From: Scenedesmus sp. PABB004
Taxonomy: Eukaryota
Direction of reading: 5' to 3'
Length of the DNA stretch: 64,000 nt
Assembly: GCA_014905635.1 (NCBI GenBank)
Contig: JABVCE010000021.1
Location: 124,001-188,000 of the forward strand
In this document: positions 1-39,844 of the stretch, one piece after another
Numbering within the stretch: the stretch's first letter is position 1
How the letters are laid out: each line of letters begins with the position of its first letter
Notes under the pieces: model-generated
What the model saw: only the letters and a program-made list of their open reading frames with translations
Told to the model about the DNA's origin: nothing
Database searches by the model: none
Translations under genes and position numbers: made by a program

Positions 1-2479
<2,479 letters not shown>

Positions 2480-4629: not shown

Positions 4630-6152
4630 ACGCGGCGCGCGCGAGGCGCTGCTGGCGCCAGCGCGCGAGCGTGAACAGGGCCATAGGGAACTCCTCCCCG
4701 CTCAGCACGGCCGCGTGGGACGCCAGGCCGGACAGGTAGGCCTTCTGCCAGGTGTTGGACGGCGCGCCGCCGTGGCGCGCGAGCGCGTAGCCCACGTGCA
4801 CGAGCGCCGCGGGCGCGAGGGCCGGCAGGTGCGGCTTGGTCGCCTGGCGGCGGCGCGGCAGCGCGGCGCGCATGGGGCCCGCGGCGGCGGCCGGCCGGCG
4901 CTGCGGCGCTGCGGCGCGGGCGCGCTCGCTCGCGGTGCGCGCGCGCTCGCTCACCGCCGCATAGTCTGCGAGCCAGTCGGCGCTGAGGTCGCCCGGCGCC
5001 ACGAGGCGGGAGGCCACAAAGCCCGCGTCCGCGAGGGACTTCGGCTCCAGGTATCGCAGCACCTTGGCGCTGCGCCGCTGCAGCAGGCCGCCAAAGCTCG
5101 TGCGCTGCGGCGGCGCCGCCGGCGCGCCCGCGGCCGGCGGCGGCGGCTCGCGCTCGAGGCTCGCCGGCGGGCGGAAGCCCAGCAGCGCCAGCCCCGCGGC
5201 GCCATGGAAGAGCGCCTCCGCGTCGAGCCGCGGGCTTCGCGTGATCAGCGTCGCGCCGAGCGCGGCGACCGCGCGCCGCCGCGCCGCGGCGGCGGCGGGC
5301 GTGCCGAGCGCGCGCGCGGGGTCGGGCAGGCCCGCGAGTGCCCACACGGCGCCGACGAGCGCGCGGTTGTTCACGCTGCGCGCGCGGGGGCGGGGCGGGG
5401 GGGGGGGGGGGAGGGCGCGGGTACGGAGGGTGCGTGGGAGGCCGGCGCCGGGGCGCCAGCAGGGGCGGCCGCCGCACGGCCGCGCACGGCGGCCGCCGCA
5501 CGGCCGCGCGCGGCGGCGGCCGACGCGGCGCGGCCTCACCGCCCGATGTTTGCCAGCAGCACCTCGGTCATGGCCGCCGCGCCGCCGGCCACCGCCGCGG
5601 CGTCGGGCGGCGCCAGCCGCGCCGCGCCGCCCGGCGGCAGCCGGTTGTGCAGCGCGACGAGCATGTCGCACACGAGCCCCACGTTCCTGCGCCGAGCGGG
5701 CGCGCGCGCGGGGGTCGGCCGGCGCGGCCGCCGACGCCGAGGTGTGCCGCAGCCGCCGCCGCTGCGCTGTGCGCACCGCTCGGCGCCGTCGTCCCCGAGC
5801 TCGCGGAAGAGCGCCAGCACGGTCTGCCAGTCCGGCGCGCCCGCGAGGTGGCCCGCCTTGTCGTCCATGCGGTCCGCAAACTCGCCGGGCTTGAGCTTGG
5901 TCTGGATGTCCTGCTGGTACTGCGAGGGCGCGCCCGGGCGGCGCGGGTGATGCCGCCGCCGCCGCCGCCGTCGCTGCTGCGCGGGCCGCCGCCGCCGCCG
6001 CCGCCGGCGCCGCGCACCGCAAAGTTGACGTCACGCGTGGCTTCCGCAATGTGGCGCGGCCGGGGGCGCACCGGCCGGGCCGCGGGCACGCGCGGGGCGG
6101 CGTGGGCGGGCCTCGCCGCCTGGCATTGCTGCTGCCGCCCGCGCAGCGCCAT
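2657..6152 (-). CDS. Organelle-targeted helical-repeat (OPR/TBC2-like) protein, multi-exon
   Basis: ATG at 6152 opens an Arg/Ala-rich transit-like leader (MALRGRQQQCQAARPAHAAPRV). Degenerate helical repeats: LAPAALVHVGYALARHGGAPSNTWQKAYL, LPLGQLVVMLQALAALSPEVSASPPWLARL, LAPGELAGVWPALVAVGHATPDAIFTRQL. Exon limits only partly resolved. Confidence 0.6.
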
Positions 6153-6629
6153 GGCGGGGCCCGCGCGGCGCCAGCTGCCGCGGGGAGCCTCGCGCTGGGC
6201 GGGGCTCGGTGCGAGACGGGCCGCCGCGGCGCCTGGGGCAGCGCTGAGCTCGCGCAGGCCGCTGAGAGCTCCCGCCAGTGCTGGCTGGCTGCGCGGCTGC
6301 ACGGGCGGCAGCGCCCGGCGTGTGGGCGCAGCTGCTGCTCTGCCCGGGCTGCGGGCGGGCGGGGCGTGCCGGCTGCGCTGCGCTGCGCTGCGGTTCCGCC
6401 GCCAGGCCGCCAGGCCGCTGCCGCCGCGTCTCCAGGCCGGGGGCGTCGCGCGGCCCAGTGTCCCAGTTGCCGCGCCTGTCGGGTGGGCGCCTCCAGCAAG
6501 CCTATCACACACATCAGCAACACACAGAGCCCTCGCTCGCCGGCTGCGGCGGCAGGTCAAGCGCGCGCGACACGCGCATCGCGATGCGCGCGCGCCGCAG
6601 CGCCGCGAGGGCGCGCAAGACGGGCCGCA
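6006..6629 (-). repeat. Segment A: inverted near-identical copy of 12792-13412 (upstream region plus first ~48 codons)
   Basis: Reverse complement matches almost base for base, e.g. ctatcacacacatcagcaacacacagagc versus gctctgtgtgttgctgatgtgtgtgatag. Confidence 0.95.
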
Positions 6630-7855: not shown

Positions 7856-9659
7856 TCACAGCTGCAGCATCTGCAGCAGCTCCAGCTGCTGCTGGAGCAG
7901 CCCGGCGCTCACGCCGCCGTCCAGGCCCTGCTCGGCCTGCCCCGCGCCCGCGCCGTGCTCGCCGCCGGCCTCCAGCAGCGCCTGCCACGCCGACAGTGCC
8001 GCGAGCTGCTGCTGCTGCTGGCCCTGGTGGGCGCCGCCCATGCCGGCCGCCGCGGCCGCGGCGGCGGTCGCCGCCGCCGCGTTGGCCTGCGCCAGGGAGG
8101 CCAGCTGCGCCTGAATCAGCCCAAACGCGTGCTCGCCGCCCCCGCCGGGCGGGGTGCTGTGGCGGCGCCCCCGCCCCGCCGGCGGCAGCTGCGCGGACAT
8201 GGGCGGCGCGCCGTGGCCGCCCAGGGCGCCGCACGACTGGCCGAACAGCAGCCCCGCCTGCGCCTGCGCCTGCGCCACCGCGGCGGCCATGGGGTCGACC
8301 AGCAGCCCCGCCGCGCCCTGCAGCCCCGCGGCCTCCAGCAGCAGCGCCTGCTGCAGCGTCAGCAGGCTGCCCTGCCCCGCCGCGTCCCACGCGCCAGCCG
8401 GCGGCGCCGCCGCGGGGCTGGGCAGGCGCTGCCCCGCCTCGAGGCTGCTCCGCGTCGAGAAGCTGCTCGCCGTGCTGACGGTCGCGTAGTCGCGCGCGCC
8501 GCCGCGCGCCGCCGCCTCGGCGGCCGCCGCGGCCTGCCACGCCCACGCGTCGCTGCAGTCGCTGTTGTCCAGGCTCGCGCGCAGCGCGGCCGCGCCGGCC
8601 GCCTCCATGCTCAGCCGCGCGCCGCCGCTGGCGAGCTCTAGGCTCGCCGCGCGCGCGCCCGCGCCGCCCGCGAGCGGCCGCACGCCGAGGTCGAGCGCGG
8701 CGCGGCCGCCGGCCGGCCAGCCCGCCGCGCGCGCCGACGCAAGCGCCGTGCGCGCGTCGAGCGAGCCGCGCTGCGACGACGCGGCGCCGGCGCCGGCGTA
8801 GCACGAGAAGGTGCTCTCCACCGACGCGCGGCTGCTGTAGAGCCCGGCCGCGTCGGCCGACGAGAGGCAGCTCGCGTCGGTCGAGGGCCGCGCCGAGCTC
8901 GCGTCGCACGAGGGCCGCGCGTAGCAGCTGCTGCTGTCGATGCTGCTGCGCGACGCGGAGCGCGCGAGCTCCAGCTCTAGCGACGCGGCGCGCGAGCCCG
9001 CCGCGGCGGCCGCCGCCGCGCACAGGTCGAGCGACGCGCGGCTGCTGCAGGGCGCCAGCCCCGCGGGCGCCGGCGCGGGGCCGGGGGCCTCCGAGAAGCA
9101 GTCGGCGGCGGCGACGAGGTTGCACAGCAGCTGCTGCTGGCGCACGGTCTTGGGCGTGGCGGCAAACGGGTTCTTGCCGCCCCCCGCGCAGCTGCTGCCG
9201 GCGGCGGCGGCGGCGGCGGCGGCGCAGCCGGCGGCCGCGCCGCCGGCGGCGCCCTTGCCGCCCTTGGCGCCGCCGCCGTGCTTGGCGTCCGACTGGCGGT
9301 CGCTGCCGCGGCGCTTGCGGTGCGGCTTGCCCCAGATTGCGGGGTTGTTCTGCGCGCTGCCGTCGAGGATGCAGGCGGGGATGAACACGCCTGCGCGCGG
9401 GAGGGGCCGCCGGCGGAGGCGGCGGGCGGAGGCGGCGGGCGTCGGCGCGCCGCGCCGCGCCGCGCCGCGCCGGCCGCCGTCCTGCAGGCCACACCCCCCG
9501 CCGGCCGCCGTGCCGCGTGCGCGCGCGCTAGCGCGCCGGCGCGCGCGCCGCACCCGTCCCGCCGCCGAGGCCGGGCGCGGCCGCGGCCGCGGCCTCGCCA
9601 GAGTTGGAGCCGGGCGCCGGCGGCGGCTCGGCCGGCTGCGCGCTGGCTGGCATGGTCAT
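7856..9659 (-). CDS. Disordered protein with a GTGVFIP motif and repeated R-x-S-[LIVM]-[DE] motifs
   Basis: Exon 9659-9554 (MTMPASAQPAEPP...GLGGGT) splices GTGCG...GCAG to exon 9391-7856 (GVFIPACILDG...LLQMLQL*), rebuilding GTGVFIP across the junction. Confidence 0.7.
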
Positions 9660-10232
9660 GAACGCCGGGGGCTCAGGGGCCCGCTCCCGGGCGCGTGCGG
9701 TGCCCGCGCCGGCGGCGCGGCGCGCCTCGCGGGACTGCAGGCAACTGCTCGCAGCGGGGGCGCCCTGCTGCCCGGGCGCGCGTGGGTCAGCTCCGGTGGG
9801 TCGCCACGGAGATGGAGGGCGCGCGCATTGACGTGCCGCGCAGGCGCCTGAAAACGAAAGATGGGGCGCGGTCGCGCCGCGCGGCGGGGGGGCGCGCAGC
9901 AAGGTCGGGCGGCGACGGCGGGGCGGGCGGGCGGCGGGGAGTGAGTCCAGGGCGGCGCCGGGGCGCAGCGAGCGCGCCGCCGAGCGGGCGCCTGTCCGCA
10001 GCGCCAGCGCCCCACGCAGGCGTCCCCCGCGCCCGCGCGCCCCGAGGATGCCCGCGCTGGCCCCTCGGCGCCTCAGGGCGCGGGCTGGCGGCTGCTGCTG
10101 CGCGGCGCCGCGCCCGTAAGGCCGGCCCGCCCGCCCGCAGCGCGCCCCGCGCGCGCCGCCGGGGCTCACAATTAGCGCGTTGCGGCCGACATCGCAGCGC
10201 CGACGCCGCTCAGGGGCTGGCCCGCGCGAGTC

Positions 10233-10543
10233 GGGAGCGGGTCGCGGCCTGCAGGGCGCGCCGCGCGCGGCTCCTGGGGCGTGGGTGGTGGTGCGGCGGG
10301 GTGCCCGGCGCGGGGGTGTGGCGAGCGGCGGCGCGGCGCGCGCCCTGCGCGCGCGATACGCGGCCGGGCGCTGTCATAACACCTGTATCAGGCGAAGCAC
10401 GCCCAAGCTGGCGCGTCCTGGAGCTGCGCCTGCGCGTGCCGCACCGCCAGCGCGCTCGGGCCCGGTCGCGCCGAGGCGCCGCGCCGCGGGCGTGCAGGCC
10501 GGGCGGGCCGAGCTCGCTGCGGCGGCCCCGCCAAGGGTGCGGC
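10233..10543 (+). repeat. Segment B copy 1: ~305-bp direct repeat of 12489-12797
   Basis: Near-identical, including ctgtcataacacctgtatcaggcgaagcacgcccaag. Confidence 0.95.
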
Positions 10544-10848
10544 GGCGTGCTGCAGGCCGCGGTCCGGGCTGCCGCCATGGCGCAGCCAGGCGACGGCGGA
10601 CGCGTGGCGCCGCCGGCGGCGGCGAGGCACGGCAGCGCCGCCGCGCACGCCGTGCGCGGTGCCCGGGAGCGCGGCGCGGAGATGCGGGCGGCGCGCGCGG
10701 CTGCCCGCTGCCCCGCGCTCCAACTATGCTGCGCTGGCGCGACGCGGCGCGCGCACGCGCCGCGACGGCGCCCGCCGCCGCTGCTGCTGCGCGGCGGCGC
10801 GCGGCCGCGCCGCCGCCCGCAGCTCGCGCACGCCGCGCCAGGGAGCCA

Positions 10849-12470
10849 CATCGGCGCAAGCTCGCACAGCGCCTCGCCCAGGCGGAACGCGAGAAATGCG
10901 CACCTCGCGCACCGCCTGGGCGAGGCGCTGTGCGGCGGCTGGCCCGATGCGGCAGGTGCGGCCCCGCCTTGCCCGGTGTGTGCAGCGGCAGGTGCGGGGG
11001 CGAGGGCCCGGCGCCGCCGCGCCCGCCCGGTGCGGCGCGCCCGCCCCGGCGCGCGCGCGCCGTGCGCGCGGGGCCGCCGCAGCGCGGGGGTCGCTCAGCA
11101 GCCAACCCTGGTCCCTCGCTGCTGCCGCCTCTCTCCCTCCTCCTCCTCCACCAGGTGCAGCGGGTGGCCCGCAACCGGCCGCCCACTTCAGGCGGCTGCG
11201 TCCCAAGGCTTCTTGTGGAGAAGCCGTAGGACGCCAGCCGCCTGAAGTGGGCGCCCGCGGACGCCCTGCGCAACTCCGGCGCCCTGCCCTGCACGCGGAC
11301 GGTACCACCTGCCTGCCGCGCCAGTTGCACGTGCACCTGTGTGCACGCAGACGGTACCGTCTGCATGGCAGGGCAAGGCGCCGCTGGCGCTCCGTGCGCA
11401 GGGCGTCCTCGCGCGCCCCGTCACGTGATGGGCAGCAGCTTCTCGGTGAGAGCTCACCGACAAGCTCGGCGAGACGCTGCCCAGCGCCACCTGCGTGCGG
11501 CGCTTGTGGTGCGTGCCTGCCCACGCATCATGCGCGCCGACGCGCCCGCGCCTGCGCCGCCGACCTCGCGCCCGCGCGCGCGCGCGCGCGCCGCCCGCCC
11601 GCCAGCGCCGTGGCGCCGCCGGGGCTGCCGCCCCAGGCGCACCGCTCCAGCGCGTTAGTCCCCCGGGCTGAAGACGGCAGTCAGCCCGGGCGAGTACACG
11701 CGCTGGGGCGGCGCGCCTGGGGGGGGGGGGGGGGCTGCCGCAGCGCGCCGGACCGCCTGGCCCGCTGCCGCCGCCGCCGCCGCGGCCGGGCGGTGCGCGC
11801 GTGCTCTGCCCCGCCCGCCCTCCCCCGACCCTCGGCACAGGCTGTGGTAGAGGCGTCGTTCGCCACCGCAGCGGCAAACGGCCGCACCGCAGCCCCGGCG
11901 AGTGGCGGGGGCGCCGCCGCGGCCGCGTGATCGCGCGCGCATGTGTGCTGCGAGCGCGGAGCGGCCCCCGGGCGCTGGCGGCCGCGGCGCTCAAGGCTGG
12001 CGGGGGGCGCTGAGCGCGGCGTACCTGGTGAAGGACGCGAAGGCGAGTTCACGCTGAGCTACGCCGCGCTCAGCGCCCCCCCCCCCCCCCCCCGCGCCGG
12101 CGGCGCCACGCGCTGCCGCTGCTGCCGGGCTGCCGCCGCGCGGGCTGCGGGCGCTGCCGACCTCGAGTCTCACCCCCCGCATCGCCGCGCGGAATACGAG
12201 AAGGGCAAGCTGCACTCGCGTCGCTTGGCGATGTACTCGAGCTGCAGCTGCAGGCGCCGCTCAAACCCTCCGACTGCGCAACACACGCGGCCGCGCTTGC
12301 TGCAGCGCAGGTGTGTGACACCTGTGTGACACCTGCCCTGCATCACGCGCGGCCGCGAGTGCACCGTCGCCGCCTGCGGCAGGCACGCGCGCGCGCACAT
12401 TGCTGCGTGCTGCGGCTGCTGCCACTGCATCATCATCGCCGTCCTTGACGGCATGGCAGCAGCCGCAGCA
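10849..12470. ncRNA. Putative structured non-coding RNA or pre-miRNA-like hairpin cluster
   Basis: At least 8 sequence-unrelated stem-loops, including perfect stems of 23 bp (10863-10885/10912-10934), 22 bp (12002-12023/12060-12081) and 17 bp (12408-12424/12454-12470). No credible protein. Transcription cannot be shown from sequence. Confidence 0.45.
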
Positions 12471-12488
12471 GCAGGCGGTGTCGGCTTT

Positions 12489-13412
12489 GGGAGGGTCGCG
12501 GCCTGCGGGGCGCGCCGCGCGCGGCTCCTGGGGCGTGGGTGGTGGTGCGGCGGGGTGCCCGGCGCGGGGGTGTGGCGAGCGGCGGCGCGGCGCGCGCCCT
12601 GCGCGCGCGATACGCGGCCGGGCGCTGTCATAACACCTGTATCAGGCGAAGCACGCCCAAGCTGGCGCGTCCTGGAGCTGCGCCTGAGCGTGCCGCACCG
12701 CCAGCGCGCTCGGGCCCGGTCGCGCCGAGGCGCCGCGCCGCGGGCGTGCAGGCCGGGCGGGCCGAGCTCGCTGCGGCGGCCCCGCCAAGAGTGCGGCCCG
12801 TCTCGCGCGCGCCCTCGCGGCGCTGCGGCGCGCGCGCATCGCGATGCGCGTGTCGCGCGCGCTTGACCTGCCGCCGCAGCCGGCGAGCGAGGGCTCTGTG
12901 TGTTGCTGATGTGTGTGATAGGCTTGCTGGAGGCGCCCACCCGACAGGCGCGGCAACTGGGACACTGGGCCGCGCGACGCCCCCGGCCTGGAGACGCGGC
13001 GGCAGCGGCCTGGCGGCCTGGCGGCGGAACCGCAGCGCAGCGCAGCCGGCACGCCCCGCCCGCCCGCAGCCCGGGCAGAGCAGCAGCTGCGCCCACACGC
13101 CGGGCGCTGCCGCCCGTGCAGCCGCGCAGCCAGCCAGCACTGGCGGGAGCTCTCAGCGGCCTGCGCGAGCTCAGCGCTGCCCCAGGCGCCGCGGCGGCCC
13201 GTCTCGCACCGAGCCCCGCCCAGCGCGAGGCTCCCCGCGGCAGCTGGCGCCGCGCGGGCCCCGCCATGGCGCTGCGCGGGCGGCAGCAGCAATGCCAGGC
13301 GGCGAGGCCCGCCCACGCCGCGCCGCGCGTGCCCGTGGCCCGGCCGGTGCGCCCCCGGCCGCGCTACATTGCGGGCGCCACGCGCGACGTCAACTTTGCG
13401 GTGCGCGGCGCC
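12489..13412 (+). repeat. Composite B + inverted A block upstream of and overlapping the mTERF-like start
   Basis: 12489-12797 matches 10233-10543 directly; 12792-13412 matches the reverse complement of 6006-6629; the two overlap at tgcggc. Confidence 0.93.
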
Positions 13413-15403
13413 GCCGGCGACGGCGGCGCGCGCGGCGACAGCGGCGCGCGCGGCGACAGCGGCGGCGGCGGCGCCGCCGGCGGCTCTGGCTCCGCCACGG
13501 GCTCAGAGCAGTCGCCCTGGAGACCGGAGCAGCATGCCAAGCTGATGGCGGACCAGCTGGGTCCCGCGTCGGCGCTCCTGGCCGCGCAGGCCCCCGGCGC
13601 GCCGCGGCAGCAGCGGCGCCCCTCGCCGCCAGGCCGGGGCGGGCCCGCGGTCGCCGCGGCCCGGGCGGGGGCGTCCGGGGAGGGCAGCGCGGCTGCCGAG
13701 GTCGGCGCAGGCGGCGTGCGGTCGCAGGGCGATGGCGCCGGCGGTGCCGCCGGCGCGAGCAGCATCAGCAACCTGCGCGAGCGCATGCGGCAGCGCGTCG
13801 CGTCGCGCGCCACGCACTCGGCGGCGCCGTCGCGCGGCAGCACGCGCGCGCCCAGCCCCGCGGCGCCGAGCGGCGGCGGCGGCGGCGGGCCCAAGCTGCC
13901 GCCGCTGCTGCCGTCCACGTCGAACGAGAGCGGCATCTTGGGCGTGCTGCAGCAGCTGCAGCTCAAGATGGGCGGCACGTTCAGCAAGCCCGGCGGCGCC
14001 GGCGGCGGCAGCAGCGCGCCGCCGGCCGCCAAGGCGCCTGCGGCGGGCGGCGCCAAGGCGCGCGGCGCGGCGGACCCGGCCGTGGCCGCGCTCGCGGCGC
14101 GCCAGGCGCGGCAGCGGGCGCTGATGATGCAGAAGGCGGCGCTGCGGGAGCAGCGGCAGGCAGCGTTCAAGCAGCTGCAGGCGGCGGCGGACGCGGGGCG
14201 CGCGCCGCCGCGTGTGGGCGCGGCCGCGGCGCCGGCCAAGCCCGCGCGCGGCCGGCGTCCCGCGAGCGATGCGCCGCCGCTGCCGGGGCTGGCGGACGTC
14301 GTGGCGCGCGCGGGCGCGCCCGAGGCGGTGCGCCGCCGGCTGCTGGCCGACTGCGCGGCGGGGCGGGCGCTGCCGCGGGACCCCGCGGAGCTGCAGCGCC
14401 GCCTGCTGCACTTCAGCACCGTCTCGCCGCTGCTGGGCGGCCCCGAGGCCGCCGCGGCCATCCTGGCGCGCGACGCCGGGGCGATGCTCATGTGCCCGGA
14501 GGCGCTGCGGGGCAAGCTCGACGGCCTGCAGCGCCTGCTGCAGCGGCGCGGCAGCGACGGCGACGGCGGCCGCGGCGGCCCGGGCGAGCCGGGCGGCGAG
14601 CCGGGCGGGCCGGGCGGCGGCGGCGGCCCCAGCGCAGAGGTGCTGGCGCTCGTGCGCTCGCACCCGGGCGTGCTGCGGCTCAGCGCGGACGCGCTGGAGG
14701 CACGGCTGGAGGCGCTGCAGGCGGCGCTGGGGCTGGCCAGCGCGGAGGAGGTGCTGCAGGTCGTGCGCTGGCAGCCGCGCGTGCTGTCCATGAACGCGTC
14801 GGCGCTGCAGCGCAAGGCCGAGTGCCTCGCGGCGGCGCTGCGCGTGCCGCCGGGCGCGGTGCAGGCGCTGCTGGCCAAGCAGCCGCTGCTGCTCAACCTC
14901 TCGGCCGACACGCTCGGCAGCAAGGCCGCGGCGCTGCAGGGCGTGCTGGGGCTGAGCGCGCTGGCGCTGTGGGAGATGGTGTCCTGCAAGCCGGGCGTGC
15001 TGCTGTTCAGCGCCGACAAGCTCGCCGACAAGTGGCGCGACCTGCAGCAGCTCGCGGGTGCGGGGCTGCGCGCGCGCGCGGCGGGGCGCGGCGCGGCGCA
15101 GCCGCCGGCGGGGGCCTGCGCGCCGCCGCCCTCACCTGCGCCGCGCTCACGGCCCGCGCCCGCGCCGCGCGCGCAGCCTCGCACCCGCGCTGGCGGGGCG
15201 AGCTCGCGGAGCTCAGCCCCGCGTCGCTCGTGCAGCTCCTCACGGCGAGCGAGCCGCGGCTGGCGCGGCTGCGCCACGTCGCCGAGGTGGGCGGGCAGGA
15301 GGGCGCGAGCCTCTACTACACCGTGGCGGGGCAGAGCGAGGCGGCGTTCCGGGCGCGGCACCCCGGCTTTGCGGCGGCGCGCGCGCGCCGGGCTGGCGGC
15401 TGA
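13266..15403 (+). CDS. mTERF-family organellar protein (2 exons: 13266-15057, 15177-15403)
   Basis: mTERF-type repeats LVRSHPGVLRLSADALEARLEAL, VVRWQPRVLSMNASALQRKAECL, LLAKQPLLLNLSADTLGSKAAAL, MVSCKPGVLLFSADKL; C-terminus SEAAFRARHPGF; transit-like N-terminus. Confidence 0.8.
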
Positions 15404-25048: not shown

Positions 25049-25796
25049 ATGAGCGGCGGCGGGCAGCCGCCGCCGCACGGCGCGCCGCCGAGGTTCTCGC
25101 TGGCGGACGAGCTGGTGAGCGCCGGCGCTTGCTCGCAGCAGGCGCCTCCGCCGTTGGTTCCCGCGCCGCGGCGCTCACCAGCTCGCTCGCCCGCGCCGCT
25201 GCCGCCCCCTGCCGGCGCTCGCAGGACCTCCTTGACTTCAGCAGCAGCAGCAGCCCCACGCCATTTGCGGGGGGTGCACCCGTCGCAGCAGCGGCGCCGG
25301 CGGCGGCAGGCGGGCCCAGCCGGAGCCCCGTGCCAGCGCAGCACCCGCTGCAGCAGCAGCCGCACGCCCAGGCCGGCGTGGGCGACCTGCTGGGCCTGTC
25401 CTCCGGCCTGGGCGGCAGCGGCTCGTTCGGCGCGTTCGCAGCCGCGGCGGCCCCGCCGGGCGGCGGCGGCGGCGGTCCAGCGGCGGCGCCGCAGGACGCC
25501 GCGCAGGTGCTATCGCTGCGAGGCGGCACGCACTCGGCGTCGGGGCCGCCCTTCCGCGCGGGTGTGTGCGCACGCGCCGGCGGCGGGGCGGTGGCGCGCC
25601 CGCTGCGGCCGCCGCTGCCAGGGCGTTGCGGCGAGCGCGCGCGTCTGCCGCCGCCGCCGTCGCGCAGGCTCGCTCGCATACAGTGACCTGCTGGGCCTGG
25701 ACGACGGCGACGGCGACCACCCCCTGGACGCGCCGGCGGGCGCCGATGCCACGCTCATCCTCGCGGGCGAGGCGCCGCCGCCGCTCGGCGCGTCGT

Positions 25797-34635: not shown

Positions 34636-37600
34636 ATGAGGCGCCTGCTGGCCGCCCTGCTGATGGTGGTGGCGTTTGCTGCGCTCGTCGCAGCAGGTGG
34701 GCGAGCCGGGGGCGAGCCGCCGCCGCGCCACGCGTGCTCGGCGTGACGCGCCTCCGTGCACCGGCCCGCAACCGCAGACGAGGATGAGCTGAGGAAGGTC
34801 CTGGCCGAGCACGAGCACGGCCTGGTGGGCGAGAACCCGGGCGTGGGCACCGCCCACGTCCGCAAGCTGCTCGGTGAGCGCCGTGAGCGCGTGACGCCCG
34901 CCGAAGCCCGCTGCGCGCGCGCCTGGCTGTGTTGCTGACGCTGCCTCGCCCGCTGTGTGGCCTCCTGACAGGTGGCGGCGCGCCCGACAACTGGCAGAAC
35001 TGGGGCGGCCCTGTCGACAAGAAGGTCTGGCAGTGGCAGCAGCCCGCCATCCCCCGCCCCGAGCGCCGCGAGAGCGACACCCGCCGCCTGCTGAGTGAGT
35101 GCCGCTGGCTGCGGGCACAGTGCTGGCGGCTGCCTGAGCGCGCACGAGGCGCGCGGTCTGACGCGCCCGCTGCCGCCGCCGTGCTGCCGCCTCCACGCTT
35201 GCAGGCGCCGATGCAAGCGGACCCGCGTCGCACCAGTTTTCCACCGCCGTGCCTGCTGAGGTGGGCATGAAGCCACGTGAGCCGCACCTGGACGACATGG
35301 AGCGCCTGTTTGCCGAGCACTTTGCGCCGGCTGAGGTGGCCGAGGACAAGCCGCGCGGTCGCAACCTGCTGGGTGAGTGGCCGGCTTGACTGCACTGCTA
35401 CCGTGGCTGCGGGCTGCCCAGGTGCGCGCGCGCCTGGCTGCGTATCTGACGCCGCCTCGCCCGCTGCGTGGCCACCTGACAGGCGGCGGCGCGCCGGACA
35501 ACTGGCAGAACTGGGGCGGCCCTGTTGACAAGAAGGTCTGGCAGTGGCAGCAGCCCGCCATCCCCCGCCCCGAGCGCCGCGAGAGCGACACCCGCCGCCT
35601 GCTGAGTGAGTGCCGCTGGCCGCTGGCACAGTGCTGGCGGCTGCCTGGGTGCGCGCGCGAGGCACGCGGTCTGACGCGCCCGCTGCCGCCGCCGTGCTGC
35701 CGCCTCCACGCTTGCAGGCGCCGATGCAAGCGGCCCCGCGTCGCACCAGTTTTCCACCGCCGTGCCTGCTGAGGTGGGCATGAAGCCGCGTGAGCCGCAC
35801 CTGGACGACATGGAGCGCCTGTTTGCCGAGCACTTTGCGCCGGCTGAGGTGGCCGAGGACATGCCGCGCGGCCGCAACCTGCTTGGCTCCGGTGGCGGCC
35901 ACGGCGGCGGCGGTGCCTCTGGCGGCAACGGCGGCAACGGTGGCCGGACCGGCCCTGCGTGGGTGCGGAGGCTGCTTGGTGCGTGCCGCTGGCTGCGCCC
36001 GCCGCCCGCCGAAGCCCGCTGCGCGCGCGCCTGGCTGTGTTGCTGACGCTGCCTCGCCCGCTGCGTGGCCACCTGACAGGTGGCGGCGCGCCCGACAACT
36101 GGCAGAACTGGGGCGGCCCTGTCGACAAGAAGGTCTGGCAGTGGCAGCAGCCCGCCATCCCCCGCCCCGAGCGCCGCGAGAGCGACACCCGCCGCCTGCT
36201 GAGTGAGTGCCGCTGGCCGCTGGCACAGTGCTGGCGGCTGCCTGGGTGCGCGCGCGAGGCACGCGGTCTGACGCGCCCGCTGCCGCCGCCGTGCTGCCGC
36301 CTCCACGCTTGCAGGCGCCGATGCAAGCGGCCCCGCGTCGCACCAGTTTTCCACCGCCGTGCCTGCTGAGGTGGGCATGAAGCCGCGTGAGCCGCACCTG
36401 GACGACATGGAGCGCCTGTTTGCCGAGCACTTTGCGCCGGCTGAGGTGGCCGAGGACAAGCCGCGCGGTCGCAACCTGCTGGGTGAGTGGCCGGCTTGAC
36501 TGCACTGCTACCGTGGCTGCGGGCTGCCCAGGTGCGCGCGCGCCTGGCTGCGTATCTGACGCCGCCTCGCCCGCTGCGTGGCCACCTGACAGGCGGCGGC
36601 GCGCCGGACAACTGGCAGAACTGGGGCGGCCCTGTTGACAAGAAGGTCTGGCAGTGGCAGCAGCCCGCCATCCCCCGCCCCGAGCGCCGCGAGAGCGACA
36701 CCCGCCGCCTGCTGAGTGAGTGCCGCTGGCCGCTGGCACAGTGCTGGCGGCTGCCTGGGTGCGCGCGCGAGGCACGCGGTCTGACGCGCTCGCTGCCGCC
36801 GCCGTGCTGCCGCCTCCACGCTTGCAGGCGCCGATGCAAGCGGCCCCGCGTCGCACCAGTTTTCCACCGCCGTGCCTGCTGAGGTGGGCATGAAGCCGCG
36901 TGAGCCGCACCTGGACGACATGGAGCGCCTGTTTGCCGAGCACTTTGCGCCGGCTGAGGTGGCCGAGGACATGCCGCGCGGCCGCAACCTGCTTGGCTCC
37001 GGTGGCGGCCACGGCGGCGGCGGTGCCTCTGGCGGCAACGGCGGCAACGGTGGCCGGACCGGCCCTGCGTGGGTGCGGAGGCTGCTTGGTGCGTGCCGCT
37101 GGCTGCGCCCGCCGCCCGCCGAAGCCCGCTGCGCGCGCGCCTGGCTGTGTTGCTGACGCTGCCTCGCCCGCTGTGTGGCCTCCTGACAGGTGGCGGCGCG
37201 CCCGACAACTGGCAGAACTGGGGCGGCCCTGTTGACAAGAAGGTCTGGCAGTGGCAGCAGCCCGCCATCCCCCGCCCCGAGCGCCGCGAGAGCGACACCC
37301 GCCGCCTGCTGAGTGAGTGCCGCTGGCCGCTGGCACAGTGCTGGCGGCTGCCTGGGTGCGCGCGCGAGGCACGCGGTCTGACGCGCTCGCCGCCGTGCTG
37401 CCGCCTCCACGCTTGCAGGCGCCGATGCAAGCGGCCCCGCGTCGCACCAGTTTTCCACCGCCGTGCCTGCTGAGGTGGGCATGAAGCCGCGTGAGCCGCA
37501 CCTGGACGACATGGAGCGCCTGTTTGCCGAGCACTTTGCGCCGGCTGAGGTGGCCGAGGACAAGCCGCGCGGTCGCAACCTGCTGGGTGAGTGGCCGGCT

Positions 37601-39844
37601 TGACTGCACTGCTACCGTGGCTGCGGGCTGCCCAGGTGCGCGCGCGCCTGGCTGCGTATCTGACGCCGCCTCGCCCGCTGCGTGGCCACCTGACAGGCGG
37701 CGGCGCGCCGGACAACTGGCAGAATTGGGGCGGCCCTGTTGACAAGAAGGTCTGGCAGTGGCAGCAGCCCGCCATCCCTCGCCCCGAGCGCCGCGAGAGC
37801 GACACCCGCCGCCTGCTGAGTGAGTGCCGCTGGCTGCGGGCACAGTGCTGGCGGCTGCCTGGGTGCGCGCGCGAGGCACGCGGTCTGACGCGCCCGCTGC
37901 CGCCGCCGTGCTGCCGCCTCCACGCTTGCAGGCGCCGATGCAAGCGGCCCCGCGTCGCACCAGTTTTCCACCGCCGTGCCTGCTGAGGTGGGCATGAAGC
38001 CGCGTGAGCCGCACCTGGACGACATGGAGCGCCTGTTTGCCGAGCACTTTGCGCCGGCTGAGGTGGCCGAGGACATGCCGCGCGGCCGCAACCTGCTTGG
38101 CTCCGGTGGCGGCCACGGCGGCGGCGGTGCCTCTGGCGGCAACGGCGGCAACGGTGGCCGGACCGGCCCTGCGTGGGTGCGGAGGCTGCTTGGTGCGTGC
38201 CGCTGGCTGCGCCCGCCGCCCGCCGAAGCCCGCTGCGCGCGCGCCTGGCTGTGTTGCTGACGCTGCCTCGCCCGCTGTGTGGCCTCCTGACAGGTGGCGG
38301 CGCGCCCGACAACTGGCAGAACTGGGGCGGCCCTGTTGACAAGAAGGTCTGGCAGTGGCAGCAGCCCGCCATCCCCCGCCCCGAGCGCCGCGAGAGCGAC
38401 ACCCGCCGCCTGCTGAGTGAGTGCCGCTGGCCGCTGGCACAGTGCTGGCGGCTGCCTGGGTGCGCGCGCGAGGCACGCGGTCTGACGCGCTCGCCGCCGT
38501 GCTGCCGCCTCCACGCTTGCAGGCGCCGATGCAAGCGGCCCCGCGTCGCACCAGTTTTCCACCGCCGTGCCTGCTGAGGTGGGCATGAAGCCGCGTGAGC
38601 CGCACCTGGACGACATGGAGCGCCTGTTTGCCGAGCACTTTGCGCCGGCTGAGGTGGCCGAGGACAAGCCGCGCGGTCGCAACCTGCTGGGTGAGTGGCC
38701 GGCTTGACTGCACTGCTACCGTGGCTGCGGGCTGCCCAGGTGCGCGCGCGCCTGGCTGCGTATCTGACGCCGCCTCGCCCGCTGCGTGGCCACCTGACAG
38801 GCGGCGGCGCGCCGGACAACTGGCAGAATTGGGGCGGCCCTGTTGACAAGAAGGTCTGGCAGTGGCAGCAGCCCGCCATCCCTCGCCCCGAGCGCCGCGA
38901 GAGCGACACCCGCCGCCTGCTGAGTGAGTGCCGCTGGCTGCGGGCACAGTGCTGGCGGCTGCCTGGGTGCGCGCGCGAGGCACGCGGTCTGACGCGCCCG
39001 CTGCCGCCGCCGTGCTGCCGCCTCCACGCTTGCAGGCGCCGATGCAAGCGGCCCCGCGTCGCACCAGTTTTCCACCGCCGTGCCTGCTGAGGTGGGCATG
39101 AAGCCGCGTGAGCCGCACCTGGACGACATGGAGCGCCTGTTTGCCGAGCACTTTGCGCCGGCTGAGGTGGCCGAGGACATGCCGCGCGGCCGCAACCTGC
39201 TTGGCTCCGGTGGCGGCCACGGCGGCGGCGGTGCCTCTGGCGGCAACGGCGGCAACGGTGGCCGGACCGGCCCTGCGTGGGTGCGGAGGCTGCTTGGTGC
39301 GTGCCGCTGGCTGCGCCCGCCGCCCGCCCAGCCCGGTGCGCGCGCGCCTGGCTGTGTTGCTGACGCTGCCTCGCCCGCTGCGTGGCCACCTGACAGGTGG
39401 CGGCGCGCCCGACAACTGGCAGAACTGGGGCGGCCCTGTCGACAAGAAGGTCTGGCAGTGGCAGCAGCCCGCCATCCCCCGCCCCGAGCGCCGCGAGAGC
39501 GACACCCGCCGCCTGCTGAGTGAGTGACCCGACCGACCCTAGGTGCGGTTGTCCGGCGCTGCGGCCTGCCGCGCAAAAAGCAGGCCGCAGCGTCGGCCGA
39601 GGCACCGCGCGCGCGCCCGCCGACGCCGGCCCCGCGCCCGCCCGGCCGCCTGGCCACAGGCACGGACGACAGCCGCCACGGCCCTGCCAGCTGGGGCTAC
39701 CGCATGCATGGCCAGGACAAAATCTATGAGCTTCTCAAGCAGCGCCCCAAGGGCGAGGCGCCCGTGGTGCCCGATGACGAGCGGTTCAACCGCCCGCCGC
39801 TGGAATACGTCGCCGGCGCCGGCGCCGAGCCGAGCGGGGAGTGA
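34636..39844 (+). CDS. Secreted repetitive prepro-polypeptide (~1050 aa, 20 exons) with R-x-L-L-delimited modules
   Basis: Exon 34636-34696 encodes signal peptide MRRLLAALLMVVAFAALVAA; exon 34778-34873; nine 123-nt exons starting 34972, 35483, 36080, 36593, 37190, 37697, 38294, 38801, 39397, alternating with 168-nt or 261-nt exons; last exon 39660-39844. All introns are GT-AG and phase 1, and the spliced frame has no stop. Confidence 0.85.
34905..39525. repeat. Higher-order tandem array (~510 + ~597 bp subunits, period ~1.1 kb, about 4 dimers plus one partial unit)
   Basis: Near-identical units recurring at 1104-1110 bp spacing, introns included. Confidence 0.97.

What the first reader, a model, noticed from the sequence alone, without database searches (positions are those of the whole stretch)
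10666..12470. Dense cluster of unrelated long hairpins in a non-coding interval
Seen: stem-loops at about 10666-10721, 10849-10949, 11249-11419, 11430-11482, 11631-11722, 11840-11894, 12002-12081, 12208-12249, 12286-12357 and 12408-12470, sharing no obvious primary sequence. At 80% GC the per-base chance of complementarity is about 0.34, so one 22-bp perfect stem has probability about 5e-11 per position pair under an independent-base model, and three stems of 17-23 bp occur here. Known: Chlamydomonas and Volvox make miRNAs from hairpins in long Pol II transcripts. Inference: a polycistronic pri-miRNA/small-RNA locus or a large structured ncRNA.
Basis: partly seen in the sequence, partly recalled or inferred. 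Interest (0 to 1): 0.78.

Follow-up and report, generated by a model that had tools for sequence, protein, structure and literature searches.

The report
Candidate algal multi-microRNA hairpin cluster
A 1.8 kb non-coding stretch of a very GC-rich alga packs seven strong and a few weaker, unrelated RNA-style hairpins, most likely one spliced transcript that is cut into several different microRNAs; that would be an unusually large cluster for the green lineage, but no small-RNA data were available to prove it.

Summary
The cluster is real. They are mutually unrelated, single-copy and non-coding. Six pass a stringent hairpin score in 1.6 kb, against 7 in 770 kb of the same genome; those 7 all sit in predicted introns of protein genes, as Chlamydomonas intronic miRNAs do. 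The genome has three Argonautes and a Dicer-like gene. Spacers in the left two-thirds look like plus-strand introns, so the best model is a spliced non-coding Pol II precursor diced into several small RNAs (about 0.6). Against it: the wobble-pair bias that marks the transcribed strand in the intronic hairpins (32:12) is absent here (20:19), and 8 of 11 hairpins fold better on the minus strand. No RNA run, homologous locus or target was found. The cluster lies between two 99%-identical 305-nt copies of a probable divergent promoter, so both strands may be transcribed. snoRNA, telomerase RNA, ribozyme, MITE and LTR readings failed their tests. Precise miRNA processing is untested.

The parts
10239..10543 (.). 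305-nt repeat, left copy; inferred divergent promoter region. Holds the predicted first 5'-UTR intron of the minus-strand neighbour gene (10343-10249) and a plus-strand splice donor at 10537
   Evidence: 99% identical to 12493-12797, 3 substitutions; only these two full copies in the genome; splice sites from self-trained model; promoter role is inference from position
10537..10822 (+). predicted intron 1 of the hairpin transcript (alternative donor 10691); contains weak hairpin H0
   Evidence: donor 52nd and acceptor 79th percentile of 1092 predicted introns; 10691-10822 scores 12.4
10666..10721 (.). H0, weak hairpin, possibly chance
   Evidence: z -2.3, 3 of 150 shuffles as good
10845..10953 (+). 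H1, strong hairpin, 23-bp perfect stem; fills predicted exon 10823-10955; a 21-nt duplex with 5' U on both strands can be drawn
   Evidence: z -10.5; scan score 42.3; single copy; duplex listing (post hoc)
10956..11154 (+). predicted intron 2 (GT..AG, 199 nt; alternative donor 10992)
   Evidence: donor 88th percentile; intron-content LLR +19.4 bits for plus over minus; intron score 18.1, training median 14.0
11176..11257 (+).
   Evidence: z -10.7; score 47.3; single copy; duplex listing
11249..11419 (+). H3, longest hairpin (about 170 nt, 66 Watson-Crick pairs); its base overlaps the end of H2
   Evidence: z -8.5; score 40.7 for the core; single copy
11430..11482 (+). H4, moderate short hairpin, too short for a 21-nt duplex by my criterion
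   Evidence: z -4.1; 0 duplexes
11509..11636 (+). predicted intron 3; may instead run to 11840 and hold H5 as an intronic hairpin
   Evidence: score 17.7; spacer LLR +9.3 bits; the 11637 acceptor lies 6 nt inside the base of H5
11631..11722 (+). H5, strong hairpin
   Evidence: z -9.3; score 46.1; single copy
11723..11840 (+). spacer ending in a plus-strand acceptor at 11840/11841; donor uncertain (11793, 11690 or 11509)
   Evidence: acceptor 46th percentile, LLR +9.4 bits
11840..11894 (.). H6, weak hairpin
   Evidence: z -3.0 plus, -3.9 minus
12002..12081 (+). H7, strong hairpin, 22-bp perfect stem
   Evidence: z -7.6; score 32.0; single copy
12208..12249 (.). H8, weak hairpin
   Evidence: z -2.8, 3 of 150 shuffles as good
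12282..12361 (+). H9, strong hairpin; 11-bp lower stem followed by a U-started imperfect duplex
   Evidence: z -6.5; score 32.8; single copy
12397..12481 (+). H10, strong hairpin, 17-bp perfect stem; ends 12 nt before the rearrangement junction
   Evidence: z -5.5; score 24.8; single copy
12493..12797 (.). 305-nt repeat, right copy; its minus-strand exon/intron (intron 12597-12503) points into the cluster; joined to the next duplicate through a 6-nt microhomology (12792-12797)
12792..13473 (+). inverted duplicate of 6629-5954 (upstream region and first exon of a minus-strand gene), now heading an mTERF gene
   Evidence: 95.8% identity; alignment; mTERF PF02536 E 2e-8
7856..9659 (-). neighbour gene A, low-complexity protein of no known family, sharing the left promoter region
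   Evidence: gene model; no Pfam family for its large exon; no Atlas hit for residues 1-200 of that exon
13266..15403 (+). neighbour gene C, mTERF-family protein

Best explanation
A polycistronic pri-miRNA-type locus. A divergent Pol II promoter in 10239-10543 drives gene A leftwards and a spliced non-coding RNA rightwards through 10545-12490. The RNA folds into seven or eight independent stems of 30-70 bp. A PAZ-less Dicer-like enzyme (as Chlamydomonas DCL3 with its RNA-binding partner) crops each stem and releases a roughly 21-nt duplex; one strand loads into an Argonaute and represses mRNAs by seed or partial pairing. Shown here: hairpins, their excess over background, single copy, lack of coding signal, presence of Dicer-like and Argonaute genes. 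Predicted: splice structure and strand. Inferred only: transcription, promoter, dicing, loading, targets. A recent local rearrangement put a second copy of the promoter region at the far end.
For: Hairpin strength and density. MFEI -0.96 to -1.16 for the seven strong hairpins and lengths of 80-170 nt. Hairpin bases are less GC-rich than spacers, 0.73 against 0.83. Independent folding in context (z -10.9 and -5.7). The genome makes this class of element: 7 of 7 equally strong background hairpins lie in predicted introns (5 introns; introns are 58% of non-coding bases), 2 of 2 tested are single-copy, and they show G.U over A.C 32:12 on the host strand (p 0.004). In Chlamydomonas most high-confidence miRNAs come from introns or UTRs and the rest from non-coding RNAs (PMC4817775). 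Three Piwi loci, two with recognisable catalytic motifs; a helicase + Dicer_dimer + 2x RNase III gene with no PAZ hit on C7 and a second likely Dicer-like gene on C24. Plus-strand introns: top-3 score sum 48.6, against a sense median of 48.8 and an antisense 95th percentile of 38.5 in 143 control windows. Only generic miRNA-hairpin Rfam hits below gathering.
Against: No wobble bias in the cluster: G.U 20 to A.C 19 on plus, against 32:12 in the intronic controls (Fisher p 0.07). The minus strand folds to lower energy in 8 of 11 hairpins, whereas the host strand does in 6 of 7 intronic controls. The right third (H7-H10) has no good plus-strand intron, and the minus-strand top-3 sum (37.9 with the repeat, 33.0 without) is near the lower edge of sense windows (5th percentile 35). 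U-started duplexes can be drawn on both strands, so they are not evidence. No UGUAA poly(A) signal on plus in 9500-13400 (the motif was barely enriched in my 3' set, so this is weak). No site within 3 mismatches for the one candidate guide tested (1 of 7 strong hairpins). The splice model is self-trained and unchecked against RNA.
Confidence: 0.6

Rival explanations
1. A hairpin-RNA/endo-siRNA locus or Dicer cleavage platform: the transcript is diced, but imprecisely or from both strands (two convergent copies of one promoter), giving heterogeneous siRNAs, or the stems serve only to destabilise a long RNA such as an extended 5' leader of gene A or of the mTERF gene.
For: Copies of the same promoter region face the cluster from both sides. 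No strand bias in wobble pairs, and both strands fold about equally. In Chlamydomonas dcl3 mutants 64 non-coding RNAs with siRNA precursors changed against 5 with miRNA precursors, and DCL3 cleaves UTR hairpins directly (PMC4817775).
Against: The stems are short, discrete and bulged rather than one long inverted repeat. The repeat copies are 99% identical and so younger than stems carrying about 20% non-Watson-Crick positions. Plus-strand introns are well formed.
Confidence: 0.2
2. DNA-level fold-back scars: repeated template switching at a rearrangement hotspot made short inverted repeats with no RNA function.
For: Two recent duplications meet 12 nt from the last hairpin through a 6-nt microhomology. 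G.T and A.C oppositions are equal, as expected without selection on one RNA strand.
Against: Seven long stems within 1.6 kb, each of different sequence, less GC-rich than their spacers and lying between splice sites. Comparable hairpins elsewhere in this genome carry an RNA signature.
Confidence: 0.08
3. Precursors of Dicer-independent small RNAs such as the Chlamydomonas AGO1-bound >26-nt class, or another undescribed structured non-coding RNA.
For: That class comes from 60-80 nt hairpins that form superclusters, five in one 3 kb intron (PMC10226591).
Against: Those clusters are amplified homologous copies with poorly paired stems; these hairpins are unrelated and have 17-23 bp perfect stems. 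No Rfam family.
Confidence: 0.07
4. A non-autonomous mobile element (TRIM/retrozyme with 305-nt LTRs) or a nest of MITEs.
For: Direct repeats of about 300 nt flank a non-coding, structured interior.
Against: No other copy of the repeat or of any hairpin in the genome (seed-based search, so lower bounds). No TG...CA ends and no target-site duplication. No hammerhead: one CUGANGA without a downstream GAAA, no Rfam ribozyme hit. The repeat holds a neighbour gene's predicted 5' intron.
Confidence: 0.02
5. A polycistronic snoRNA cluster or the telomerase RNA.
For: Intronic snoRNA genes are reported in Chlamydomonas (PMC8226300 passage); a 7-nt telomere-like word lies at 12263.
Against: One box C (minus strand) with the nearest box D 363 nt away; no ACA or H box at hairpin ends; no Rfam snoRNA at gathering. 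The telomere unit is TTTAGGG and the best match is a single unit, too short for a template.
Confidence: 0.02

Closest known systems
Chlamydomonas reinhardtii DCL3/DUS16/AGO3 miRNAs (PMC4817775, abstract, part 2 of 3 of Results, Discussion; PMC12026948 passages)
   Same: Long imperfect single-copy hairpins in Pol II transcripts, intronic or in non-coding RNAs; PAZ-less Dicer-like enzyme; no sequence conservation between species (PMC5511227 passages), which fits the lack of homologues here.
   Different: No cluster or polycistron is mentioned in the main text of PMC4817775 (0 occurrences; Table 1 and supplements not seen). Here 7-8 unrelated stems lie in 1.6 kb. Processing not shown here.
Land-plant non-homologous polycistronic MIRNA precursors (PMC2812943 passages; PMC4860694 abstract)
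   Same: Unrelated hairpins, one per stem, 81-670 bp apart, mostly intergenic and non-conserved; hairpin spacing here is 0-220 nt.
   Different: Those clusters hold two miRNAs, with one three-member exception; the 8-member rice cluster is homologous. This locus has at least 7 non-homologous strong stems and predicted introns between them.
Animal polycistronic clusters such as miR-17~92 (name recalled; cluster sizes from PMC2812943)
   Same: Several different hairpins in about 1-2 kb of one non-coding transcript.
   Different: Different kingdom; heterogeneous stem lengths (80-170 nt) rather than uniform pre-miRNAs; no Drosha/Pasha pair tested for.
Chlamydomonas AGO1-bound >26-nt sRNA superclusters (PMC10226591 passages)
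   Same: Several hairpin precursors clustered in a few kb of a green-algal genome.
   Different: Those are repeated homologous units, weakly paired and Dicer-independent; these are unique with long perfect stems.

Membership tests
miRNA (polycistronic pri-miRNA) | Single-stranded precursor folds into an unbranched stem able to hold a ~21-nt duplex with few mismatches | tested here: met
   7 strong hairpins hold 21-47 possible 21-nt duplexes each; H4 and H8 hold none; H0 and H6 not tested; z-scores
miRNA (polycistronic pri-miRNA) | Locus is transcribed from one strand | tested here: inconclusive
   Splice signals favour plus; wobble bias absent and folding energy leans minus; no RNA holder listed
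miRNA (polycistronic pri-miRNA) | Precise excision of a guide/star duplex with 2-nt 3' overhangs, dominant reads | not testable with these tools
   No small-RNA data available
miRNA (polycistronic pri-miRNA) | Dicer-like dependence and Argonaute loading | not testable with these tools
   Only the presence of the genes was shown
miRNA (polycistronic pri-miRNA) | Several hairpins on one transcript | tested here: inconclusive
   Density and shared splice chain suggest it; no cDNA
miRNA (polycistronic pri-miRNA) | Not a transposon or repeat fragment | tested here: met
   Single copy (H0 and H6 only)
Known Rfam miRNA family | Score at or above the family's gathering threshold | tested here: not met
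   0 hits at gathering; best 31.2 bits against 86
Box C/D or H/ACA snoRNA cluster | C and D boxes at termini, or H and ACA boxes after paired hairpins | tested here: not met
Telomerase RNA | Template longer than one telomere repeat | tested here: not met
   7-nt match only
TRIM/retrozyme LTR element | TG...CA LTRs, target-site duplication, multiple copies, hammerhead ribozyme | tested here: not met
MITE | Multiple genomic copies with shared terminal inverted repeats and TSDs | tested here: not met
AGO1-bound >26-nt sRNA cluster | Repeated homologous, weakly paired 60-80 nt hairpins | tested here: not met
   Unrelated stems with 17-23 bp perfect pairing against the description in PMC10226591

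The most novel reading that the evidence does not exclude
A single-celled alga carries an animal-style polycistron of seven to eleven unrelated miRNAs, far larger than the two- or three-member non-homologous clusters of land plants, and a recent duplication has set a second copy of its divergent promoter at the far end, so that both strands are transcribed and every stem, which folds equally well either way, yields two different small-RNA sets, or the locus has been switched into a double-stranded siRNA source.
Probability: 0.15. Interest if true: 0.8.

Novelty: new variant of a known kind. Interest (0 to 1): 0.55.

Why it matters
Green-algal miRNAs have been studied in few species and their roles are unclear; in the papers I saw they are described as scattered, young and unconserved. 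A locus that concentrates seven or more different precursors under one promoter would imply co-regulated output and selection on the set, and one deletion would test function for all of them at once. It would also be a ready scaffold for multiplex artificial miRNAs in algae. The by-product, about 9 strong intronic hairpins per Mb (7 in 770 kb; roughly 360 if extrapolated to 40 Mb), points to a sizeable undescribed small-RNA repertoire in this alga.

Tried and rejected
RNA evidence: no RNA holder listed for 10545-12490; no evidence either way, and no reads were laid. Homologues: one metagenome pattern scan with the H2 arms gave 1 hit, an unrelated 47%-GC contig ending in a palindrome, with no alignment to the window at E<0.7; no covariation test was possible; the genome has no relatives in the held collection. 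Targets: 1 candidate guide tested, only its own locus within 3 mismatches; arm-length searches found only self matches. Viral collections were not scanned. 5'-U duplex signature: present on both strands, not discriminating. Poly(A) signal: uninformative. Protein-coding reading: long GC-driven ORFs exist but score 16 bits or less. tRNA/tmRNA: none. Bacterial terminators or promoters: none. snoRNA, telomerase RNA, hammerhead, LTR and MITE readings rejected. Gene A function: nothing from Pfam or the Atlas. Earlier findings were not open. Literature: nine searches listed no paper describing a polycistronic miRNA cluster in a green alga; the library lacks most subscription papers, including early Chlamydomonas and Volvox miRNA papers that I did not see, so this is not proof that none is in print.

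Full report
Setting. The window is part of contig C15 of a 40 Mb, 80-contig eukaryotic assembly, about 80% GC, with TTTAGGG-type telomere repeats at the start of 4 of 9 contigs examined, one of the four degenerate. I treat it as a green alga by inference from composition, telomere unit, intron style and the mTERF gene; no taxonomic search was run.

Observation. Seven are strong (H1, H2, H3, H5, H7, H9, H10; plus-strand z -5.5 to -10.7, 0 of 150 shuffles as good; MFEI -0.96 to -1.16), H4 is moderate (z -4.1), and H0, H6 and H8 are weak. Four of the five perfect stems of 17 bp or more in the window lie here. A scan that scores pairs against a fifth-order background model found 6 hairpins at score 30 or more in the cluster and none elsewhere in the window, against 7 in 770 kb from 77 other loci (7 of these loci were chosen for Argonaute or RNase III genes, 4 flank the window, and two pairs overlap by 1 kb). 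The Poisson probability is about 1.5e-14. The hairpins share only 10-11 nt words, are single-copy by seed-based search, are less GC-rich than their spacers (0.73 against 0.83) and fold independently in context. Rfam gives nothing at gathering score and only weak generic miRNA-hairpin matches.

Architecture. I trained a simple gene finder on 69 ten-kb loci; it converged on 1092 introns, median 122 nt, 241 with GC donors. It is unchecked against RNA. It finds no credible coding exon in 10545-12492. On the plus strand the spacers after H1, H4 and H5 have intron-like composition (+19.4, +9.3 and +9.4 bits plus over minus; training median +5.3) with canonical sites. The best three plus-strand introns sum to 48.6, equal to the median of sense windows (48.8) and above the 95th percentile of antisense windows (38.5; 143 windows); the minus strand sums to 37.9, or 33.0 without the intron inside the repeat. 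The likely transcript has a first exon ending at 10536, H1 in exon 10823-10955, H2-H4 in exon 11155-11508, H5 exonic or intronic, and H6-H10 in a last exon from 11841. The right third has no good plus-strand intron, so its strand rests on continuity only.

Flanks. A 305-nt direct repeat bounds the cluster (10239-10543 and 12493-12797, 3 substitutions), and the right copy runs through a 6-nt microhomology into an inverted duplicate of 6629-5954 that supplies the upstream region and first coding segment of an mTERF gene. The repeat has no other full copy, no LTR ends and no target-site duplication. It holds the predicted first intron of minus-strand gene A and the plus-strand donor at 10537, so I read it as a divergent promoter region. 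Which copy is the original is not settled, though the coincidence of the two duplicate boundaries is simplest if the right copy is derived. Either way, promoter copies now face the cluster from both sides, and H10 ends 12 nt before the junction, so the cluster may have been truncated.

Genomic context for the class. All 7 strong background hairpins lie in predicted introns of protein genes: two pairs and three singles in 5 introns. The hosts look like pyruvate kinase, a DEAD-box helicase, a proteasome alpha subunit, a peptide/nitrate transporter and a glutathione-transferase-like protein; these names are recalled from the translations, not from a database call. Introns are 58% of non-coding bases, so 5 of 5 independent cases is suggestive (about 0.07 by chance), not decisive. 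Two of the seven were tested and are single-copy. On the host strand they have 32 G.U against 12 A.C oppositions (p 0.004; 24:7 in the first five, 8:5 in the two found later), the mark of selection on RNA folding. The genome has three Piwi-domain loci, two with recognisable catalytic motifs, a gene with helicase, Dicer-dimer and two RNase III domains and no PAZ hit, and a second likely Dicer-like gene. This matches the Chlamydomonas system, where PAZ-less DCL3 cuts hairpins in introns, UTRs and non-coding RNAs (PMC4817775).

Evidence against. The cluster shows no wobble bias (20 G.U, 19 A.C on plus; Fisher p 0.07 against the controls), and the minus strand folds to lower energy in 8 of 11 hairpins, whereas the host strand wins in 6 of 7 controls. 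This conflicts with the splice evidence and is unexplained; it would fit younger stems, use of both strands, or a DNA-level origin. U-started 21-nt duplexes can be drawn for H1, H2 and H9 but also on the opposite strand, so I give them no weight. No RNA run was listed, the one metagenome scan returned an unrelated contig, and the one guide tested has no near-perfect site elsewhere, which is expected if seed pairing suffices, as stated for Chlamydomonas.

Mechanism. Most likely (0.6) a polycistronic pri-miRNA: Pol II transcription from the left promoter, splicing, cropping of each stem by a Dicer-like complex, loading into Argonaute, repression by partial pairing. Rivals: imprecise or two-strand dicing, or a cleavage platform (0.2); DNA fold-back scars (0.08); Dicer-independent or other structured RNA (0.07); mobile element (0.02); snoRNA or telomerase RNA (0.02). 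It works like a miRNA cluster on structure and context; membership is unproven because the defining features, precise duplex excision and Dicer dependence, could not be tested.

Comparison and novelty. Land-plant non-homologous clusters hold two miRNAs, with one three-member exception; animal clusters usually hold two or three, some up to eight or more (PMC2812943 passages; PMC4860694 abstract). The main texts of the Chlamydomonas DCL3 paper, the Volvox paper and the Coccomyxa paper contain no occurrence of 'cluster' (for the last two I saw passages only, and no tables or supplements, which could list adjacent miRNA loci). Clustered hairpin precursors are known in Chlamydomonas for the AGO1-bound long sRNAs, but as homologous repeats (PMC10226591 passages). 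Chlamydomonas miRNAs are not conserved even in Volvox (PMC5511227 passages). Passages only were also seen for PMC12026948, PMC8226300 and PMC7676726. Nine searches listed no report of a green-algal polycistronic miRNA cluster, within a library that lacks most subscription papers. If confirmed, this is a known kind of locus in an unusual form and lineage.

Verdict. Real feature; probable large non-homologous small-RNA precursor cluster; new variant of a known kind; interest 0.55.

Noticed in passing
L105 3916-4227; L106 7467-7818; L082 7927-8013; L131 2698-2844; L136 5887-5975: Seven strong hairpins (z -7.5 to -13.1) in predicted introns of housekeeping genes, twice as pairs in one long intron, with G.U bias on the host strand: candidate intronic miRNAs, about 9 per Mb sampled.
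   Followed up: partly
69 sampled loci of G000: 241 of 1092 predicted introns (22%) have GC donors, a very high share; self-trained model, unchecked against RNA.
   Followed up: no
window 5954-6629 (-) and 12792-13473 (+): Inverted duplication gives the mTERF gene the upstream region and transit-peptide-like first exon of a neighbouring gene; in the copy the model reads through the splice donor as coding.
   Followed up: partly
window 34663-39844 (+): Predicted gene built of tandemly duplicated exon pairs (9 and 8 copies, units 92-99% identical in DNA including introns); each exon product ends in an RRLL or RNLL motif, which recalls propeptide cleavage sites of secreted algal proteins (recalled).
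   Followed up: no
window 25098-25195, 39542-39606, 15053-15189: Weaker hairpins (scan score 22-27, z about -5 to -6.5) mostly within predicted introns; the last pairs the two ends of the mTERF intron.
   Followed up: no
window 9659-7856 (-): Gene A encodes a low-complexity protein with a GTGVFIP motif resembling a plant GTGVFLP motif (recalled); no Pfam or Atlas hit.
   Followed up: partly
L045-L047, L049, L051: Two Argonaute genes lie in tandem on C16 and one on C1; two probable Dicer-like genes on C7 and C24.
   Followed up: partly
L125 3989-4091: Unrelated 47%-GC metagenome contig ends in a palindrome with 36-bp perfect arms; hairpin end or assembly fold-back.
   Followed up: no
window 1900-2053: Perfect (AC)77 microsatellite inside a predicted intron.
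   Followed up: no
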